This document shows, piece by piece, positions 25,892-55,880 of a stretch of DNA of 64,000 nucleotides (positions are counted from its first letter, which is position 1; each line of letters opens with the position of its first letter). Below the pieces are notes generated by a model. That model saw only the letters and a list, made by a program, of their open reading frames with translations, ran no database searches and was not told where the DNA came from. The stretch comes from Candidatus Moranbacteria bacterium GW2011_GWC2_40_12 (GTDB lineage: Bacteria > Patescibacteriota > Minisyncoccia > Moranbacterales > UBA11712). The position numbers were made by a program, and so were the translations under genes. The stretch is taken from assembly GCA_000995965.1 (NCBI GenBank), contig LBYD01000001.1, positions 207,265-271,264 of the forward strand, written 5' to 3'.

Positions 25892-26548
25892 CTATTTGAG
25901 GGTTTCTTTTAGCTTCCCCAACCCCCTTTGATGCCGGCTCTTAACTGTGTTGTAGGGTTCGCCCAGAATTTCGGCGATTTCGTGGAGGGAAAAGTCTTCT
26001 TTATAGTGCAAAAGTAAAATCGCGCGGTAACGCGGCGGAATTTTTGATAATATTTTTTCCAGATCTTCTGTGATATTTTTTCGCTCCAGAATTTCGTCCG
26101 GCAGGATTTCATCGCCGGATATATTTTCAAGAGCATTATTTCCTTCATCATCCTCGAATTTTGAAAACAAAATCTCTTTTTTCTTTTTGAGCCAGTCAAA
26201 AGTCGTATTTTTGGCGATGGTGAAAAGCCACGTTCTGAATTTTTTATCCGGATCATATTTCTTAAAATTTTTCCATACTTTCACAAAAGTCTCTTGAGTC
26301 AAGTCTTCGGCCGTGTCGCGATTATTGACCAGTCTGAAAATAAAATTATAGGCCGGCTTCAGATGTTTTTTCACCAGCTCCGAAAAAGCGGCTTCATTGC
26401 CGCTTAAGTATTCTTCAATTATTTTTTCATCGCTTTTTTCCATGTTCTGCCGAAAATTCTCAAGGTAGTCAAATTTATCCACGTGGAGGAAAATGACCAC
26501 TTTTTCTCTTCCCAACATCCGATGTTGGGAAATTAGCTTTTTAGCCAA
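25892..26548 (-). CDS. RNA polymerase sigma factor, ECF (sigma-70 regions 2 and 4)
   Basis: Region 2 DLTQETFVKVW ... WLFTIAKN and region 4 HTH LHEIAEILGEPYNTVKSRHQRGL. The start is probably an internal Met near 26443. Confidence 0.75.
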   Translation of the reverse strand: MAKKLISQHRMLGREKVVIFLHVDKFDYLENFRQNMEKSDEKIIEEYLSGNEAAFSELVKKHLKPAYNFIFRLVNNRDTAEDLTQETFVKVWKNFKKYDPDKKFRTWLFTIAKNTTFDWLKKKKEILFSKFEDDEGNNALENISGDEILPDEILERKNITEDLEKILSKIPPRYRAILLLHYKEDFSLHEIAEILGEPYNTVKSRHQRGLGKLKETLK

Positions 26549-29292: not shown

Positions 29293-29332
29293 ATTTTCAT
29301 AATACCCTAGAGCTGAGCTCTAGGGTGAAATA

Positions 29333-41853: not shown

Positions 41854-42279
41854 ATGTCACGCTCAAATAATTTTAAGCTTATGGACACTCAAAAGCTTCT
41901 AGAAGCAATAAAAAAAGAAAATAGAAAAACGAAAGATGAAACAGTGAAAGAGCTGAAAGGATATGTCGGAGAAGAAATCGATAAACTGGCCACAATGACC
42001 CAAAAAGGATTTCTGGAAGTGGGTGGAAGAATGGATAAACTCGATGGCAGAATGGATGGGTTGGATGGCAGAATGGATGGGCTGGAGGGTGGCATGGGAG
42101 AATTGAAAGTCGGAATGAAAAACCTGCACAAACGAATGAATGTTTTGGAGGATAATCAGGAAGAAATCAAAACAAAGCTTGACGGCCTCGCTTATCGCTT
42201 TGAATTGGAAGAATTGAGAGTCCAGCACTCGAGGCGCTTGCGGGCTTTGGAGCTTAAAGTTGGCATCAAGCCGGCATAA
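41854..42279 (+). CDS. coiled-coil protein with tandem GRMDxL peptide repeats
   Basis: GRMDKLDGRMDGLDGRMDGLEGGMGEL is encoded by a 21-bp DNA tandem repeat (about 42026-42100). The true start is possibly the internal Met at 41881. Confidence 0.35.
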   Translation: MSRSNNFKLMDTQKLLEAIKKENRKTKDETVKELKGYVGEEIDKLATMTQKGFLEVGGRMDKLDGRMDGLDGRMDGLEGGMGELKVGMKNLHKRMNVLEDNQEEIKTKLDGLAYRFELEELRVQHSRRLRALELKVGIKPA

Positions 42280-42355
42280 AAGATAAACACAATACTCAAT
42301 ACTAAATATACTGTACTAAAAATGGCTTTCTTAAGCCTTTTTTGTTTATTTCGAC

Positions 42356-42384
42356 TTGACAAAGACGTACCAGCCTGCTATGCT
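42356..42384 (+). promoter_or_regulatory. near-consensus sigma70 promoter TTGACA-17-TATGCT
   Basis: Hexamers read directly, with an AT-rich UP-like segment upstream. Fires into the GC-rich island. Confidence 0.45.
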
Positions 42385-42439
42385 AGACACACAAAATCGC
42401 AATGTGCGATAGGAAAAGTATTATTACCAACCAAAAGAG

Positions 42440-43030
42440 AAGGAGATTCGCCATGCCCGACGTTTTTTTGAGTACCTGCGGCCAGTGCCACTTTTTCGAA
42501 TGCAACGCCAATATCGGCGCCCAGGGCCCCATCACCTGACCCAGGTGAGCCCCCGGCGCGGGCTGGCGGCCTTTCCGCCGGCCCTGCCATCGTGAAAGGA
42601 GAGTTTATTAACCCCGGCCATTGCGGCCGCCTGACCGGCCCGCCGCTAAAGCGGTGGTTTCGGAGGTGCCCCATGACCATCACCCGGTGCCACAGGACAG
42701 AGGTTCCTGGCTAGGCGCAGACAATCTTCGGCAGCGGCCCGCGTGAGGCGGCTGACGAGATTGCGTGTAGTGCCCCGCGGGGTGACTAAAAGACCGGCGG
42801 CTCAATCCCACTCTGGGAATAGGCCTGGCGGCAGCTGGTGTCGGTGCCGATCCACGGAGATCTGGCGCCCGCGGCCCAAAGAACGCCAGCAGAGCCCTCC
42901 CACATTCCGGCCCATCAGCCTGACCTTTCCGCGGAAGGCCGGGCCAACGTCCTCGCGGGTTGTGTAGCAAAAGCGGTGCGGCTGCTGGGAGACACTCCAA
43001 CCCCTCCCGGCGCCGCGCCGCCCTTTTTTA
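42440..43030 (+). other. about 600-bp GC-rich (about 65 % GC) non-coding island; candidate structured RNA or foreign-DNA remnant
   Basis: Strong compositional contrast with flanking DNA at about 35-40 % GC. Dense GC hairpins (cacctgacccaggtg, ggcggcctttccgcc, ccccgcgggg). All six frames translate to Arg/Pro/Ala-rich junk. Confidence 0.4.
42453..42539 (+). CDS. 28-codon Cys-rich sORF (MPDVFLSTCGQCHFFECNANIGAQGPIT)
   Basis: ATG preceded by AGAAGGAGA at -7. About 60 nt downstream of the predicted TSS. Not in the ORF track because it is under 60 aa. Confidence 0.3.
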   Translation: MPDVFLSTCGQCHFFECNANIGAQGPIT

Positions 43031-44198
43031 CGAAAAGTGATTTTGTTCTTTTTTTATCGCCTCTCCGGATAACGAGGCAAATTATCAATCATTTAGGAGC
43101 TTCCAGTATCACCCCAGCAGAACCGGATTTCTGCTGGTTTTTTTTGAAAATTAATCTTTTAAAATTTTTCTTGCTTCATTTTTCCACCTTCTTTGTTGAC
43201 AAGAGCCAAAAAACTGCTAAAATCAGAACTACCAGAGAACTCCCTTTCTTTGGTGGTGCTTGCGGAGCGCGGATATTGGAGCTGGAAGTCAACCTCCCCG
43301 TTAAGCGACAACTAGAATCTCTCTTGTCCGCGACTCCGCCTTATTTCAAAAGTTTCAGTTCTTTATTAGAACCGAGAAAATTCTCGGCAAAAAATTCTCA
43401 ATCGGATAATATTATCCAGGGCTGGCGTTCGTTCAGTTTCAATTTCTAGAATCAAATCTAGCAATTATAAAACGGCCGCCAGCCTCCCCTTCCTTACAAT
43501 CTGTAAGGTTTTTTATTTCTCGAAAATTTTCTTTTGCGGTTTTTTTGTTGCCGTGGTAGATTATGAACATCAGTGTTTGAGGGAGGTGATGATGAGGAAC
43601 GCTTTGGTAAGGAAAGGCTTCGTCTAACGACGAGCAACACGAAACTTCACCCAGCCGCCGCTGGAAGAATCGTGGATATCATTCAAGAATTCAACGACTT
43701 ACTCCGGCGGCGCAAACTTTTTCAGTTCTTGAGAAATATACGGGCTTTGCCGGGGAAAACAAGGTTGATACCCATACTCCTTTCAAGTTTTCGGTGCTTC
43801 TTCCTTTTTTCCGGCAGCCCGCCAGCTCTTCGTGAGGAGCCTCCAGGCGATCCGCGGCATACCCCTTCCGCGGAAAAACCCGGGCCTGATCCACACCCGC
43901 CAACGCTTCAAAGCTGGTTCCCCCCGGCAAAGGCGGTGAGAGGCTCTTCACGAACCCTTTCAAAAAGTTTGCAGATCCCTGGCGTTTTTTGCTCCCGGGG
44001 GAGAAAAATCGGTCGAGCGAAAAACGCCAAAACCACTAAAGGGCCCCGCAACTCGGGGAAGAGGTGACCAATGGACTTCCCGGCAATTTTTGCGGAAGAA
44101 CTAAGGAGGACGCCTATGAGGAAAAGCACAACTGAGATAACTGGCGCGTTAATCTTCAAAAAATATAACTGAAACAAAAGCACCCCGGGGCTCATGCC

Positions 44199-44226
44199 AC
44201 GGGGTAATTTTTATCCTAAGATCCGA
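44199..44226. repeat. 27-bp direct repeat with REP-like palindrome (left copy) ttttatcctaagatccgatcttgggat
   Basis: Identical to the copy at 44925-44951. Contains the palindrome cctaagatc-c-gatcttgg. Confidence 0.7.
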
Positions 44227-44242
44227 TCTTGGGATAGAGATC

Positions 44243-44917
44243 TTAGGATAGATTTTCAAGAATTAGCTTTTCGTCTTCCTTTTTTAACTTCGCCGCCTCA
44301 ACATTCTCTTTTGCAAAATTTTCATATTCTTTATTGTTTTTAAATTGGCTCCAAATCACTTCTCCGTTACATATATCGCTTTTACTCTTTCTTAAGAAGT
44401 TCGACAGACTGCTCCAGGGGTATTTTTTCGCGTCCGAAATATTGTGCACTTCGGCGTTGCAATTTACGTAGGCAGAAAGATAAAGAAGATGATGAGTCGA
44501 TTTGATGAGGCTAGACTTGCACTTCCCCTGAAACAAGACTCCACTGCGATTATATTTTTTGTTGAAATACATTGTGAATCCTATCCCTACTCTTTGCATA
44601 AATCTTTCAATACCATTTTTTGCAAGTTGTTCCAGGACAAAGTGATAATGATTCGGAAGCAGAGAAAAACAAACAATTTTAACCAGCGGATTTCTTTTCC
44701 TAAGATCCGATCTTAGGAAGGTTTCTACTGTCGCTTTTGGATAGGTTTTTTTGTGATCGCGCCAGCGTATCATGAGACCGTCTTGCTCGTCGTTCATAAG
44801 GCGCATTGAAAGCAAAAAGCGACGATAATCAAAATCATCTAGAAATATTTTTCTTTTATCGATTCCTCTATTGAAAATGTGGTAGTATTGATCTTTAATA
44901 AATTGCACTTTTCGCAT
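44243..44917 (-). mobile_element. REP-associated tyrosine transposase / IS200-like Y1 HUH transposase
   Basis: HUH motif LLPNHYHFVLE, downstream catalytic-Tyr region LLYLSAYVNCNAEVHN, and C-terminal YPWSS, characteristic of the TnpA_REP/IS200 family. Flanked by identical repeats. Confidence 0.75.
44698..44718. repeat. third copy of the palindrome (tcctaagatccgatcttagga) inside the transposase CDS
   Basis: Read directly. In-frame, encoding FLRSDLRK. Confidence 0.6.
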
Positions 44918-44924
44918 AGATTTA

Positions 44925-44951
44925 TTTTATCCTAAGATCCGATCTTGGGAT
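44925..44951. repeat. 27-bp direct repeat with REP-like palindrome (right copy)
   Basis: Identical 27-mer. Abuts the stop codon of the ABC permease gene. Confidence 0.7.
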
Positions 44952-44956
44952 GGCAA

Positions 44957-46342
44957 TTATTTACGCAGGGCTTCGATAGGCGAGAGTTTTGACGCTTTCC
45001 AGGCCGGATAAATTCCAAAAATGATGCCCGTGACAGCTGAAAAGCTGACCGCCACCAAAATTGTGCTCACTGGAACAGAGAACTGGAGAAAAAAACCAAG
45101 CCGGACCAAAAAACTGTTGAGAAGATACGTCGCCGCGATGCCTAAAATGATTCCCACGGCCCCCCCCAAAAGCGTGACAATGACGGCCTCAAAGAGAAAC
45201 TGGCGCAAAATCCCCGAACTTGAAGCGCCCACTGCCTTGCGAAGGCCGATTTCGCGCGTTCGTTCAGTGACCGCCACATACATGACGTTCATTATTCCCA
45301 CTCCGCCAACAATCAAGGAAATCGATGTGAGCGCGAGAAGAAGATAGTTTATCGTCCCGAAAACTTTGTCGATCATCGCTTTTCCCTCTGCCGCCGACAT
45401 GACGACAAAATCTTCCTTGTCCGGATCGGTGATATCATGCTCCTCGCGCATCACGTCGCGGATATCCACGGCCGTTTCTTCGATGCGCGAAGTGTCTTTC
45501 ACTTTGAAAGTGATAAACTGGACATAGTCAATGCCCATCAATTTCTTGTTGAGTGTTTTGAGAGGAATATAAATCGCGTCGTCAAAATTGAAAAATCCGG
45601 CCGCTCCCCGCTCGCGAACAACTCCGATGACGCGATAGCTTTGGCTTTTGATTTTGATATTTTTTCCGACCGCGTCCCCTTCCCCAAAAAAACTTTTTTT
45701 GACGCCCGCGCCGATAACCGCCACTTGAGCCGCGCCAGATTCGTCGCCCTCCGAAAAAAAAGCCCCATCCTCGAGCTGGATCTGGCGGTCAATTTCAGTG
45801 TAGCTGGGATTCACTCCGAAAAGAATCACCCGTTTATTCACGTTGGAATAGCTCACCAGCTCCTGGTCAATATTTCCAGCGCTCCAAAGCTTTATATTCG
45901 GGATTCTGGCCACTGCTTCCGCGTCTTTCTCTTTGAGCGTTGTGATTGCGAGGCCCGTCCCCCGCCCGGCAATATTTTCTGATGATGTTTCCGAGACTCC
46001 CGGCACTTTCACCTCAACTTGGACATAATCCGTTCCGAAAACCTCGATTTGCCCCAGGACATAGTTTTTGAGCCCCGCCCCGCCTGCCATCACAATGATG
46101 ACGGAAGTGATCCCGATCACGATTCCCAGCACCGTGAGCGCCGTGCGAAGCATGTTGGCGCGCAAGTTGCGAAACGCCAAACGAAACACCACTGTCCACT
46201 CGTGGGGAGAACGGATAGTGAGATGGAGAAGGGAGTGGAAAATATTTTTTATGCGAGATAAACTTTTCGCCATAAATATGTTCTCGTAATTTGCAATTGG
46301 CAATTTCGCTCGCTCTGCCTGCCGGCAGGCAAGTCGCTGCAA
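44957..46342 (-). CDS. ABC transporter permease, MacB/FtsX family
   Basis: FtsX C-terminal helices plus a periplasmic MacB-like domain. Confidence 0.75.
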   Translation of the reverse strand: MQRLACRQAERAKLPIANYENIFMAKSLSRIKNIFHSLLHLTIRSPHEWTVVFRLAFRNLRANMLRTALTVLGIVIGITSVIIVMAGGAGLKNYVLGQIEVFGTDYVQVEVKVPGVSETSSENIAGRGTGLAITTLKEKDAEAVARIPNIKLWSAGNIDQELVSYSNVNKRVILFGVNPSYTEIDRQIQLEDGAFFSEGDESGAAQVAVIGAGVKKSFFGEGDAVGKNIKIKSQSYRVIGVVRERGAAGFFNFDDAIYIPLKTLNKKLMGIDYVQFITFKVKDTSRIEETAVDIRDVMREEHDITDPDKEDFVVMSAAEGKAMIDKVFGTINYLLLALTSISLIVGGVGIMNVMYVAVTERTREIGLRKAVGASSSGILRQFLFEAVIVTLLGGAVGIILGIAATYLLNSFLVRLGFFLQFSVPVSTILVAVSFSAVTGIIFGIYPAWKASKLSPIEALRK

Positions 46343-47635: not shown

Positions 47636-47753
47636 AACGATTCAATAAATATCAAAAAAGAATTGTGAATTTAGAACAAGAATACGGAATATAGAATTCT
47701 AGATTCGATATTCCGGATTCCCATTCACAATTCTAAATTCCCAATTCTCAATT

Positions 47754-55111: not shown

Positions 55112-55813
55112 CTAAATTATTTTTCTGCGTTTTATTTGATTTTGGTCATCTCTCCCCGGACTTCTCCTGACAAATTGTTCTGAAGGCGCTTGAGGATGAT
55201 CTTTTGTCCCGGGAGCTTCCGCGTGCAATCCAGCGCCCAGAGATTCCTCTTCGATAATGCGGATCCGGTCCTCGACATTTTCCGGCGCGGCTTGTTTTTC
55301 TTTCTTTTCCCGCCGGCTCCGCCACTTTTTCGTTATTTCCTCTTTTATCTTATACAGCTCTTCATAGATGATGATGGTCGCCGGAATGATCACGAGCAGA
55401 ATGAATCCGGTTTTCGTGCGAGCGTATCCAATCGGGTAGCCGACATAGGGCAAATTGAAAATAGTTTTTCCGACCACATTTTGCCCGCTGGTTTCCTCCG
55501 GATCCGCTTCCTCGTTCGCATCTCCCTTTGTGCGATAGGTTGCTTCCCCGCCGCTGCCTTTTTTTTCCACCACCCGGTGAGTCACGGTATTTCTCCCGGC
55601 TTTTATCGTGATCACATCCCCCACGCCGTATTCCGGAGCGGATTTCACGAAAATCAAACTTCCCATTGGCACTTTCGGCTCCATCGAACCCGATTGCACG
55701 GTGAAAATCTTATAATTCCCAGGAATCGGCAAAAAAGTCCCCGCGACCACCAGGAGAAACAGGAACAAAACCGCCAGTATCAGATTGTAGCCTATTTTGA
55801 AAACTTTTTTCAT
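55112..55813 (-). CDS. SipW-type (ER/archaeal-type, S26B) signal peptidase I
   Basis: N-terminal TM, catalytic Ser box SGSMEP, His box VTHRVV, and GDAN box. Has a His rather than the Lys of LepB-type enzymes, plus a C-terminal TM and a basic tail. Confidence 0.65.
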   Translation of the reverse strand: MKKVFKIGYNLILAVLFLFLLVVAGTFLPIPGNYKIFTVQSGSMEPKVPMGSLIFVKSAPEYGVGDVITIKAGRNTVTHRVVEKKGSGGEATYRTKGDANEEADPEETSGQNVVGKTIFNLPYVGYPIGYARTKTGFILLVIIPATIIIYEELYKIKEEITKKWRSRREKKEKQAAPENVEDRIRIIEEESLGAGLHAEAPGTKDHPQAPSEQFVRRSPGRDDQNQIKRRKII

Positions 55814-55880
55814 TTTTAAGGCCGAACCTTAAAAAAAATTATAACCAATTTTTAAAACCTTTTAAAACATCCTTGCCTAT

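What the first reader, a model, noticed from the sequence alone, without database searches (positions are those of the whole stretch)
44199..44951. RAYT/IS200-like HUH transposase flanked by identical 27-bp palindrome-bearing direct repeats (REPtron-like), with a third palindrome copy inside its own CDS
The 224-aa ORF carries the HUH motif (NHYHFV), a catalytic-Tyr region and the C-terminal YPWSS block typical of REP-associated tyrosine transposases.

It is bracketed by two identical 27-mers (ttttatcctaagatccgatcttgggat) at 44199-44226 and 44925-44951, each containing the near-perfect palindrome cctaagatc-c-gatcttgg. A perfect version (cctaagatccgatcttagg) also lies in-frame inside the gene at 44698-44718. 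The right repeat abuts the stop codon of the last gene of a MacAB-like efflux operon, so this is a recent insertion downstream of that operon.

RAYT/REP systems are well known in Proteobacteria but scarcely described in reduced CPR-like genomes. A REP copy embedded in the transposase ORF is unusual.
Basis: partly seen in the sequence, partly recalled or inferred. Interest (0 to 1): 0.65.

Follow-up and report, generated by a model that had tools for sequence, protein, structure and literature searches.

The report
RAYT-like gene carrying its own REP
A candidate-phyla-radiation bacterium (Moranbacteria) has a long-resident, divergent HUH/tyrosine "REP-associated transposase" gene bracketed by its cognate 23-base palindrome, and it also encodes a copy of that palindrome inside its own reading frame; this internal copy changes in step with the flanking copies across the close gene family.

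Summary
A perfect 23-nt palindrome sits in frame at 44697-44719, inside a 224-aa ORF on the minus strand.

The protein misses the curated cut-offs (Pfam Y1_Tnp 18/23 bits; NCBIfam RAYT 22/80 bits). However, it has invariant HUH and Tyr motifs, and its predicted fold best matches the E. coli RAYT-REP complex (4ER8).

It is not a recent insertion. The gene sits at the same site, downstream of the MacB permease, in two other species (85% and 78% protein identity).

The palindrome is dispersed as singlets and doublets in related Moranbacteria genomes, sometimes in frame inside ArgRS and RsmI. I could not count it in the window's own genome beyond these 64 kb.

In 12 lineages with DNA available, every homolog is flanked by its own palindrome type. 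Ten also carry an intact matching copy inside the ORF, nine of them at codons 66-67. Nine of 11 stem pairs show compensatory changes, and the encoded peptide shifts to follow the DNA.

In-ORF REPs are already known for RAYT subclass 2.4, but at a different site. Verdict: a real REP/RAYT system in the CPR, and a new variant of a known kind. The function of the internal copy is unresolved.

The parts
44243..44917 (-). RAYT-like Y1 HUH nuclease/transposase ORF, 224 aa. It is 100% identical to hypothetical protein A2374_01900 of Candidatus Moranbacteria bacterium RIFOXYB1_FULL_44_23.
   Evidence: ORF. Exact database match plus 776 homologs. Pfam Y1_Tnp 18 bits against a cut-off of 23. NCBIfam REP_Tyr_transpos 22 bits against 80. 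AF2 model with pLDDT 91.4. Foldseek top hit 4er8_A at E=5e-7, followed by IS608 and ISDra2 TnpA.
44642..44650 (-). Codons for the HUH motif, H90-Y91-H92 (within N89-HYH-F).
   Evidence: Read from the sequence. N89, H90 and H92 are invariant in 77 homologs.
44468..44470 (-). Codon for Y150, the predicted catalytic tyrosine (motif Y150-V-N-C-N154).
   Evidence: Y150 and N154 are invariant in 77 homologs. Y150 lies in predicted helix 141-152.
44925..44951 (.). Upstream (5') REP. The 27-mer contains the 23-nt palindrome 44929-44951 (ATCCTAAGATC-C-GATCTTGGGAT; one T.G pair on the plus strand, C.A on the coding strand). It fills most of the 39-nt spacer between the permease stop codon and the RAYT ATG.
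44697..44719 (.). Internal REP: the perfect palindrome TTCCTAAGATC-C-GATCTTAGGAA, in frame, covering codons 67-73 and the first two bases of codon 74 (FLRSDLRK).
   Evidence: It is the longest run of three-way nucleotide identity between the window, L019 and L015. It covaries with the flanking REPs across lineages.
44209..44252 (.). Downstream (3') three-armed REP. It consists of the 27-mer 44209-44235 (palindrome 44212-44236) plus an extra arm GATCTTAGGATA at 44239-44250. It contains the ORF's TAA stop codon (44243-44245).
   Evidence: (I11). A 14-nt half-arm duplication relative to L019 and L015, together with loss of the ancestral TAG stop, is visible.
44172..44205 (-). G+C-rich hairpin (ACCCCGTGGC-ATGA-GCCCCGGGGT) followed by a T-rich tail (GCTTTTGTTT). 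This is an intrinsic-terminator-like site that would close the MacAB-RAYT transcription unit.
   Evidence: The consensus scan did not flag it, so this is an inference from the sequence.
44957..46342 (-). Context: the last FtsX/MacB_PCD permease gene of a MacAB-like efflux operon (MFP, ABC ATPase, two permeases).
   Evidence: Pfam families of the called genes on the identical contigs L001-L005. ORFs.
26509..26531 (.). Another 11+1+11 palindrome of a related type (TTCCCAACATC-C-GATGTTGGGAA), intergenic, between two co-directional genes.
29304..29326 (.). Another 11+1+11 palindrome (ACCCTAGAGCT-G-AGCTCTAGGGT), 3 nt upstream of an ATG. It resembles the REP that flanks the P0105-type RAYT in L058.
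55813..55835 (.). Palindrome TTTTTAAGG-CCGAA-CCTTAAAAA that abuts an ATG. It is the reverse complement of the REP flanking the P0007-type RAYT in L020.

Best explanation
This is a resident, vertically inherited REP/RAYT system of a Moranbacteria (CPR) genome.

Shown:
- The 224-aa protein has the Y1 HUH fold, with the metal-binding H90-x-H92 pair and Tyr150.
- It is a single gene, kept at the same chromosomal site in three species.
- It is bracketed on both sides by its cognate 23-nt palindrome.
- That palindrome family also occurs away from the gene in related genomes. It appears as singlets and as doublets with a 3-nt spacer, in tight gene junctions and in frame inside housekeeping genes.

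Inferred from the biochemistry of E. coli TnpA-REP and IS608 TnpA: a dimer binds the palindrome when it folds as a hairpin in single-stranded DNA (for example on the lagging-strand template). It cuts beside the hairpin through a 5'-phosphotyrosine intermediate and rejoins, so copies are deposited, flipped or overwritten.

The three local copies are best explained by cis-biased action of this enzyme around its own gene. The internal copy sits in a linker that is length-variable in more distant relatives. It lies in the only stop-free frame of the palindrome, so it is tolerated and is translated as FLRSDLRK. It is kept identical to the active REP family by the same copying or conversion process that keeps the family uniform, possibly reinforced by selection for a cis-regulatory role.

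The gene is probably co-transcribed with the MacAB operon. The upstream spacer is almost entirely REP, and a terminator-like hairpin follows the 3' REP.
For: Fold and motifs:
- AF2 model with pLDDT 91.4. Foldseek best hit is 4er8_A, the E. coli RAYT-REP complex, at E=5e-7, followed by IS608 and ISDra2 TnpA.
- H90, H92, Y150 and N154 are invariant in 77 homologs. Pfam Y1_Tnp matches all 77 at E<=0.01.

Residency:
- Same position after the MacB permease in L019 (85% identity) and L015 (78%).
- One copy in the window. Paralogs within one genome are only about 57% identical to the query and carry different REPs.

Cognate flanks:
- All 12 lineages have upstream and downstream palindromes whose sequence differs between lineages.

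Dispersal:
- Genome scan: 9 stretches in two Moranbacteria genomes, 8 of them without a RAYT gene.
- Metagenome scan: 30 stretches, which I grouped by eye into at least 14 distinct locus types.
- In-frame doublets in ArgRS and RsmI.

Internal copy:
- Intact in 10 of 12 lineages: at codons 66-67 in nine, at codon 59 in L058. It is degenerate in L060 and absent in L061.
- 88.5% of cells paired; 9 of 11 pairs show changes on both sides; 0 of 500 shuffles reach this; slid controls give at most 56.5%.
- In 119 homologs, the octapeptide is fully palindrome-compatible in 66% and compatible at 5 of 6 positions or better in 89%. Control windows reach full compatibility in 1%.
- It is the longest three-way identical nucleotide run in the locus.

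Recent homogenisation:
- The two flanking 27-mers in the window are identical, including the T.G variant. The orthologous flanks in L019 and L015 differ from them.

Permissive site:
- In 50%-identity representatives, the segment before the HUH strand varies widely in length and sequence, and often contains repeated peptides.
Against: - No biochemical evidence exists for this protein. Binding, cleavage and mobility are all inferred.
- The ORF is below the curated cut-offs of Pfam (18/23 bits) and NCBIfam RAYT (22/80 bits). A profile of the family finds no Y1 transposase in the PDB by sequence.
- The palindromes lack the GT[AG]G tag of canonical REPs.
- Copy number is low: fewer than 10 exact copies per related genome.
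- In the window's own 64 kb, the family occurs only at this locus.
- Many REP sites are orthologous between species (thyA upstream, ArgRS, RsmI). This argues for stability rather than active transposition.
- AF2 places residues 64-71 in a confident helix, and F67 is invariant. The segment is therefore not simply a floppy linker in this subfamily.
- Wobble and mismatch patterns give no strand preference, so DNA-level and RNA-level roles cannot be separated.
Confidence: 0.6

Rival explanations
1. The internal palindrome is a selected cis-regulatory site. The RAYT protein, or a host factor, binds the hairpin in its own gene or mRNA, together with the 5' and 3' copies, to limit its own expression or to make the gene a self-limiting substrate. 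The flanking and dispersed copies then follow the enzyme's specificity.
For: - The internal copy is retained in 89% of the close subfamily at a fixed codon position, with compensatory changes.
- All 23 nt are identical across three species, while neighbouring synonymous sites vary.
- The peptide changes (FLRSDLRK, FPRLSLGK, FLRSNLKK, FLKLGFRN) to keep the DNA palindrome.
- The upstream copy lies 6-20 nt before the ATG in every lineage.
Against: - The same palindromes lie in frame in unrelated genes (ArgRS, RsmI), where autoregulation of the RAYT is not an explanation.
- L061 lacks the internal copy and L060 has a degenerate one, yet both ORFs are intact.
- In distant relatives the segment is hypervariable.
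- No expression data exist.
Confidence: 0.25
2. The palindromes are host RNA-level elements (mRNA processing or stability signals, or translational control at operon junctions). They evolve under structural selection independently of the Y1 protein, and the association with the gene is incidental or reflects shared regulation.
For: - Intergenic copies sit 5-21 nt after a stop codon and 3-12 nt before the next ATG.
- The 3' arm supplies an AGGA at Shine-Dalgarno distance from the ATG, for example upstream of thyA.
- They lie between co-directional genes. Di Nocera et al. 2013 (PMC3733652) argue from similar positions that many REPs act as RNA.
Against: - Each of 12 RAYT lineages is flanked by, and 10 of them also contain, their own palindrome type. 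Such lineage-specific matching is not expected for generic RNA elements.
- There is no T-run after the palindromes, so they are not intrinsic terminators.
- No Rfam family matches.
- No excess of G.U pairs over A.C pairs on the coding strand.
Confidence: 0.1
3. It is an autonomous IS200-like insertion sequence. The two palindromes would be its left-end and right-end subterminal hairpins, and it would have inserted recently downstream of the efflux operon.
For: - Hairpin-bearing direct repeats on the same strand at both ends resemble IS200/IS608 ends.
- The fold also matches IS608 and ISDra2 TnpA.
Against: - The same insertion site is seen in three species whose flanking genes have diverged by roughly 20%.
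- There is no second copy of the cassette in the window or in any fetched locus.
- The hairpins occur alone at many other loci.
- The Tyr motif is Y-x3-N rather than the Y-x3-Q of IS200 transposases (Quentin 2018, Table 1).
- There is no tnpB gene.
Confidence: 0.05

Closest known systems
E. coli RAYT / TnpA-REP (YafM) and its REPtron (PDB 4ER8; Nunvar 2010; Ton-Hoang 2012; Messing 2012)
   Same: - Best structural match.
- HUH plus a single catalytic Tyr.
- A single-copy, resident gene bracketed by the palindromes that are also dispersed in the genome, as singlets and inverted doublets.
   Different: - 13% sequence identity; below the NCBIfam RAYT cut-off.
- About 60 residues longer, with a WSS-containing C-terminal tail.
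- Motif Y-x3-N-A rather than Y-x3-NP.
- The REPs are near-perfect 23-nt palindromes without the GTAG tag.
- A few copies per genome rather than hundreds.
- A REP copy lies inside the ORF.
TnpA-Y1 subclass 2.4 (Bertels group 4; Cyanobacteria/Bacteroidetes) with REPs inserted in frame in tnpAREP (Quentin et al. 2018, PMC6006769)
   Same: The RAYT gene is flanked by REPs and also carries in-frame REP sequence within its own ORF.
   Different: [quoted passage not shown] Here the copy is upstream of the HUH strand (codons 67-74), has a fixed 8-codon length in the subfamily, and contains an invariant Phe.
- The motifs differ: FQ here rather than WQ, and YVNCN rather than YIxNNP.
- Covariation of internal and flanking copies was not mentioned in the sections of that paper I read.
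TnpA-Y1 subclass 2.1 / TIRYT (Bertels group 1)
   Same: By eye, the motifs fit best: NH[YF]H, FQ instead of WQ, length about 220-240 aa, and a proximal tail with conserved serines (against Table 1 of PMC6006769).
   Different: - Subclass 2.1 is reported to have no REPs. It has GGGG[AT][CG]A[CG] terminal inverted repeats and a C-terminal HTH/DnaA_C-like domain.
- Here no such Pfam domain is found, and palindromic REPs are present.
- Membership was not tested by phylogeny.
IS200/IS608 TnpA insertion sequences
   Same: Same fold, and hairpins next to both ends of the gene.
   Different: - Not multi-copy, and no tnpB.
- Y-x3-N rather than Y-x3-Q.
- The location is conserved across species, and the hairpins are dispersed without the gene.
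Intragenic REPs and Rickettsia palindromic elements (Ogata 2000; Di Nocera et al. 2013, PMC3733652)
   Same: Palindromic repeats, often as dimers, inserted in frame in housekeeping genes and translated. Here this is seen in ArgRS and RsmI.
   Different: - These are much shorter units (8 codons; doublets of about 15-16 codons).
- They carry no GTAG or CGTC tag.
- The same ArgRS site carries a different palindrome family in different lineages.

Membership tests
Y1 HUH transposase superfamily (Pfam PF01797 Y1_Tnp) | Match to the Pfam model at the gathering score | tested here: not met
   18.0 bits against a cut-off of 23, E=0.0032, covering residues 79-151. All 77 aligned homologs match at E<=0.01, with a best E-value of 2.6e-9.
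Y1 HUH transposase superfamily (Pfam PF01797 Y1_Tnp) | HUH metal-binding motif on a beta strand | tested here: met
   N89-H90-Y91-H92-F. H90 and H92 are invariant in 77 sequences. They lie at the start of predicted strand 90-97.
Y1 HUH transposase superfamily (Pfam PF01797 Y1_Tnp) | A single catalytic Tyr on a helix, followed four residues later by a polar residue (Y-x3-Q/N) | tested here: met
   Y150-V-N-C-N154. Y150 and N154 are invariant. Predicted helix 141-152.
Y1 HUH transposase superfamily (Pfam PF01797 Y1_Tnp) | Three-dimensional fold of TnpA (IS608/ISDra2) and RAYT | tested here: met
   Foldseek hits: 4er8_A at E=5e-7, 2vjv_A at 4e-5, 2xma/2xm3 at about 3e-4 (probability 1.00). The match covers only the core, with TM-score 0.49-0.64. 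A sequence profile against the PDB found none of these.
RAYT / TnpA-REP (class 2 of Quentin et al. 2018) | NCBIfam equivalog NF047646 at its cut-off | tested here: not met
   22.3 bits against a cut-off of 80.
RAYT / TnpA-REP (class 2 of Quentin et al. 2018) | Y-x3-NP signature | tested here: not met
   The motif is YVNCNA. The Asn is present, but the Pro is replaced by Ala.
RAYT / TnpA-REP (class 2 of Quentin et al. 2018) | Low copy number and vertical inheritance | tested here: met
   One copy in the window and in each fetched locus. Synteny in three species. Two paralogs in genome JAUXSN01 are each only 57-78% identical to the query and carry different REPs.
RAYT / TnpA-REP (class 2 of Quentin et al. 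2018) | Gene flanked by palindromes that are also dispersed in the same genome | tested here: inconclusive
   Flanks are present in 12 of 12 lineages. Dispersal in the same genome is shown for the 78% ortholog's genome JAUXSN01, with 3 further loci. For the window's own genome only 64 kb was available, with no further copy of this type. Contigs suspected to be from this genome turned out to belong to another organism.
RAYT / TnpA-REP (class 2 of Quentin et al. 2018) | Canonical REP: a 5' GT[AG]G tetranucleotide at the foot of the hairpin | tested here: not met
   The feet are TTCC/GGAA or ATCC/GGAT. I saw no GTAG or GTGG next to any copy when reading the sequences printed; no formal motif search was run.
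RAYT / TnpA-REP (class 2 of Quentin et al. 2018) | Sequence- and structure-specific cleavage of REP ssDNA | not testable with these tools
   This needs purified protein and oligonucleotides.
RAYT subclass 2.4 (REP inside tnpAREP) | [quoted passage not shown] | tested here: not met
   The internal copy is at codons 67-74, upstream of H90. It has a fixed length in the subfamily.
IS200/IS605 insertion sequences | Multiple near-identical copies, presence/absence polymorphism, Y-x3-Q motif, often a tnpB partner | tested here: not met
   Single syntenic copy, Y-x3-N motif, and no tnpB among the neighbouring genes.

The most novel reading that the evidence does not exclude
In these CPR genomes the palindromes would be positionally fixed elements that the Y1 enzyme overwrites in place.

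Evidence that fits this reading:
- The same sites carry whichever palindrome family is current in that lineage. These sites are inside the RAYT ORF, at its two flanks, and at orthologous in-frame sites such as the ArgRS linker.

What it would imply:
- A RAYT-driven 'REP conversion' mode of concerted evolution.
- Each RAYT gene would carry a readable copy of its own substrate, so enzyme-substrate pairs could be read directly from gene sequences in metagenomes.

A bolder version: the REP-encoded helix (residues 64-71) is part of the surface that recognises the hairpin, so that DNA and protein specificity change together.
Probability: 0.2. Interest if true: 0.8.

Novelty: new variant of a known kind. 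Interest (0 to 1): 0.62.

Why it matters
What RAYTs do, and how each stays matched to its own REP family, has been open since about 2010, and the work has centred on Proteobacteria.

This locus shows three things:
- A large, divergent RAYT-like clade exists in the CPR: 1,246 clusters at 50% identity with E<=1e-30. The curated models under-call it.
- In the close Moranbacteria subfamily, the gene carries a copy of its cognate palindrome inside its ORF. That copy co-varies with the flanking copies and matches the dispersed form of the palindrome (TTCC...GGAA feet), so it acts as a built-in label of substrate specificity.
- In genomes with almost no intergenic space, the palindromes live in gene junctions and in frame within essential genes.

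Together these give many natural enzyme-hairpin pairs for testing recognition rules. They also provide a system in which concerted evolution of REPs can be traced site by site.

It also matters for annotation. The short repeated peptides such as LRSDLR in CPR proteins are repeat-derived.

Tried and rejected
- A sequence profile of the family against PDB chains found no Y1 transposase. Only the fold comparison found them.
- Rfam found only three tRNAs in the window. Nothing credible turned up in 42200-44300 at relaxed thresholds.
- The IMG/VR scan for homologs returned none.
- I tried to show dispersal in the window's own genome. Contigs from the same metagenome that carry the palindrome (L031, L048, L052) belong to a GW2011_GWC2_40_12-like Moranbacteria organism, not to this one. 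The ArgRS homolog search and cluster look-ups did not identify this organism's ArgRS.
- I looked for strand bias in G.T versus A.C mismatches, to separate RNA, coding-strand and template-strand hairpins. There were too few imperfect copies and no bias.
- The consensus promoter/terminator scan was uninformative. It flags the palindromes themselves as weak 'terminators' on the non-coding strand, and a 9/12 promoter-like match overlaps the 5' REP.
- The 1.9-kb ORF-poor stretch downstream is not conserved in the syntenic loci. Its folding energy is only marginally unusual (z = -2.4 on the plus strand, -0.5 on the minus strand). I therefore did not treat it as part of the system.
- Chance expectation: a 19-mer with two twofold-degenerate positions is expected on the order of ten times by chance in 596 Gb. 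Isolated hits such as Gelidibacter L016, and probably L035, L042 and L043, are therefore not evidence. The clustering of 9 stretches in two genomes that I assume to be roughly 1 Mb each is evidence.
Full report
**What is in the sequence**

The minus-strand ORF 44243-44917 encodes 224 aa. The 27-mer TTTTATCCTAAGATCCGATCTTGGGAT occurs exactly twice, at 44209-44235 and 44925-44951, with none expected by chance.

Each 27-mer contains the palindrome ATCCTAAGATC-C-GATCTTGGGAT, which has one T.G pair on the plus strand. A perfect 11+1+11 palindrome, TTCCTAAGATC-C-GATCTTAGGAA, lies at 44697-44719. On the coding strand it reads TTC CTA AGA TCG GAT CTT AGG AA(A), which is F67-L-R-S-D-L-R-K74.

The 3' element has an extra half-arm, GATCTTAGGATA, at 44239-44250. 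This arm contains the TAA stop codon. The element can therefore fold in two ways.

The right repeat ends 5 nt from the stop codon of the last FtsX/MacB_PCD permease gene of a MacAB-like operon. A G+C-rich hairpin with a T-rich tail at 44172-44205 on the minus strand follows the 3' element.

**Identity of the protein**

The ORF is 100% identical to a hypothetical protein of Candidatus Moranbacteria bacterium RIFOXYB1_FULL_44_23. At least 776 homolog clusters exist, and the listed ones that carry a name are nearly all Moranbacteria, Parcubacteria or Patescibacteria. Several are labelled 'REP element-mobilizing transposase RayT' by JGI.

The ORF itself is below the curated cut-offs. Pfam Y1_Tnp scores 18 bits against 23. 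NCBIfam REP_Tyr_transpos scores 22 bits against 80. All 77 aligned homologs hit Y1_Tnp at E<=0.01.

H13, N16, R17, G18, N89, H90, H92, Y150 and N154 are invariant.

An AlphaFold model (pLDDT 91.4) matches best the E. coli RAYT bound to a REP hairpin (4er8_A, E=5e-7). IS608 and ISDra2 TnpA follow. A sequence profile against the PDB found none of these.

A profile search of 1.84 billion representatives gave 28,186 hits at E<=1e-3, 13,402 at E<=1e-10 and 1,246 at E<=1e-30. The wider family is large.

**Not a recent insertion**

The 85%-identical homolog (L019, GCA_040960625.1) lies directly downstream of the MacB permease gene and upstream of a DUF4012 gene, as in the window. The 78%-identical homolog (L015, genome JAUXSN01) lies directly after the conserved C-terminal end of the same permease gene. 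The flanking coding DNA has diverged by roughly 20%.

The gene is present once in the window. It behaves as a resident gene, as described for RAYTs (Bertels et al. 2017, PMC5581495).

Other lineages have the cassette in quite different neighbourhoods, always tightly packed after an upstream gene on the same strand.

**The palindrome is a dispersed family in related genomes**

An exact scan of one genome per species found 10 stretches. Five are in Moranbacteria RIFOXYB1_FULL_43_19, four are in JAUXSN01, and one is a lone hit in Gelidibacter that is compatible with chance. Only L015 among them encodes the RAYT.

A metagenome scan gave 30 further stretches. Read together, I grouped them by eye into at least 14 locus types. 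They include singlets, doublets of the form REP-GCG-REP (start-to-start spacing 24 nt), and three- or four-armed variants like the window's 3' element.

Several of these sites are orthologous between species.

Intergenic copies fill the junction between co-directional genes. They lie 5-21 nt after a stop codon and 3-12 nt before the next ATG. Their 3' arm provides an AGGA at Shine-Dalgarno distance.

I could not test dispersal in the window's own genome. The window holds no further copy of this type, and candidate contigs proved to be from another Moranbacteria species. The window does hold three other intergenic palindromes of the same build, at 26509, 29304 and 55813. Two of them match the REP types that flank other RAYT lineages.

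**Every homolog has its own palindrome, outside and inside**

For 12 lineages with DNA available, both flanks carry a palindrome, and its sequence differs between lineages:
- window, L019 and L015: CCTAAGATC
- L018 and L023: CCAAGACT
- L020: TTTTTAAGG
- L056: CCTAATC
- L057 and L059: CCTAAAGC
- L060: GACCAGAG
- L061: CCCTAACATT
- L058: CCTCCGAGAG

In nine lineages the same palindrome type is also encoded at codons 66-67 of the ORF. In L058 it lies 8 codons upstream and inverted. In L060 it is degenerate, and in L061 it is absent.

The peptide changes with the DNA. Examples are FLRSDLRK, FPRLSLGK, FLRSNLKK, FLINEIRK and FLKLGFRN.

On an alignment of the 12 internal segments:
- 88.5% of cells pair.
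- 9 of 11 pairs show changes on both sides.
- No shuffle out of 500 reaches the observed values.
- Slid registers give at most 56.5% pairing.

The relatedness of the sequences inflates such shuffle statistics. The slid-register control and the number of distinct pair types are not affected in that way.

At the peptide level, residue 3 pairs with residue 6 (R-L, K-F, T-V, I-I) and residue 2 pairs with residue 7 (L-R, L-K, P-G, R-R), exactly as complementary codons require. Of 119 homologs, 78 are fully compatible and 106 are compatible at 5 of 6 positions or better. Control windows reach full compatibility in 1% of cases.

Between the window, L019 and L015, the longest run of three-way nucleotide identity in the whole locus is the 23-nt internal palindrome.

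In the window lineage the two flanking copies are identical 27-mers that differ from the orthologous flanks. This points to a recent copying or conversion event between them.

**In-frame copies elsewhere**

The CCTAAGATC doublet is translated as LLRSDLRSVLRSDLRK inside arginyl-tRNA synthetase in several species. A doublet in RsmI is also translated.

Only one reading frame of the palindrome is free of stop codons, and it is the same frame on both strands.

Among 120 ArgRS homologs, the same linker carries doublets of other mirror peptides, such as LTFNVRSVLTLNVR, FLKSDFRNFLKSDFR, PRLSLGDAPRLSLGK and LKLSFRKFLKLSFR. More distant ArgRS sequences have a short plain linker. One of these cases was checked at the DNA level. 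It is a CCTAACATT doublet with the same GCG spacer.

This site, like the site in the RAYT ORF, therefore holds different palindrome families in different lineages.

**How this bears on the internal copy**

In 50%-identity representatives of the wider family, the segment before the HUH strand varies widely in length and sequence, and often contains repeated peptides. It is a permissive region.

In the Moranbacteria subfamily the segment has a fixed length. It is predicted as helix 64-71 plus a loop, with high confidence, and it contains the invariant F67.

The most economical reading is as follows. The internal copy is a cognate REP sitting in a tolerated, stop-free frame. It was deposited there because the enzyme acts preferentially near its own gene. 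It is kept uniform with the family by the same process that keeps the flanks and dispersed copies uniform. A selected autoregulatory role is not excluded.

I found no strand bias that would separate DNA-level from RNA-level action.

**Comparison with what is known**

REPtrons, REP doublets (REPINs/BIMEs) and single-copy RAYTs are established. The relevant papers are PMC2817692, PMC3116915 and PMC5581495, which appeared; I opened only PMC5581495.

Intragenic, translated REPs are known in Opitutus and Rickettsia (PMC3733652).

REPs inserted in frame inside tnpAREP genes are reported as a feature of subclass 2.4. [quoted passage not shown]

By eye, the motifs of the present protein (NHYH, FQ, a WSS tail, about 224 aa) look most like subclass 2.1. 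That subclass is reported to have no REPs. I did not test this by phylogeny.

I found no paper that deals with REP/RAYT systems in the CPR. The one paper holding both search terms mentions each once, and I did not open it.

The points that appear new are:
- the host clade
- the untagged 23-nt palindromes
- the position of the in-ORF copy
- its lineage-by-lineage covariation with the flanks
- the turnover of palindrome family at orthologous in-frame sites

**Verdict**

The RAYT/REPtron interpretation is supported, but the 'recent insertion' claim is not. The system is a new variant of a known kind. The role of the internal copy remains an inference.

Noticed in passing
L008, L013, L029, L040, L047, L052, L027 (ArgRS); L031, L034, L051 (RsmI); L062:2302-2345: REP doublets lie in frame inside arginyl-tRNA synthetase and RsmI and are translated (LLRSDLRSVLRSDLRK). 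Across 120 ArgRS homologs, the same linker carries doublets of different mirror peptides in different lineages. One case (L062) was confirmed at the DNA level as a CCTAACATT doublet with the same GCG spacer.
   Followed up: partly
window 26509-26531, 29304-29326, 55813-55835 (also 47685-47715): The window contains further 23-nt palindromes of the same build but different sequence. Each sits in a tight junction between co-directional genes. Two match REP types that flank other RAYT lineages (L058 and L020). This suggests that the genome hosts several REP families, and possibly further RAYT paralogs outside the window.
   Followed up: partly
L007/L038/L039/L030/L044 (thyA upstream), L014/L033, L042, L012, L049; window 29304-29326 and 55813-55835: Intergenic copies end 3-12 nt before the next ATG. 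In the CCTAAGATC family, the 3' arm supplies an AGGA at Shine-Dalgarno distance while the 5' arm carries the complementary TCCT. In mRNA the hairpin would therefore sequester the ribosome-binding site.
   Followed up: partly
window 42300-44200: About 1.9 kb with no convincing ORF and raised G+C (0.55 in 42001-43000, against about 0.44 elsewhere), immediately downstream of the RAYT cassette. It has no Rfam match. It is not conserved in the syntenic loci L019 and L015, which have much shorter spacers. Folding z-scores for 43780-44200 are -2.4 (plus strand) and -0.5 (minus strand). Its origin is unknown.
   Followed up: partly
window 44239-44252, compared with L019:5660-5695 and L015:3525-3556: The window's ORF lost the ancestral TAG stop codon and now reads three extra codons (NLS) into a duplicated half-arm of the 3' REP. 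In L018, the 3' REP has been absorbed into a longer C-terminal extension (235 aa).
   Followed up: yes
L023:3805-3851; L059:563-654: More REP copies cluster near other RAYT loci. A GCG-spaced doublet lies inside the giant DUF2341/Laminin_G_3 gene downstream of the RAYT in L023. Two extra copies lie about 1.9 kb upstream of the RAYT in L059, five copies within 3.3 kb in all.
   Followed up: no
proteins P0258, P0267, P0282, P0301, P0308: Distant family members have long, internally repetitive segments before the HUH strand, for example GRRPPSATPLGRRPPSATPLGRRPPSALP. This suggests several in-frame repeat units at the same site. No DNA was available to check.
   Followed up: no
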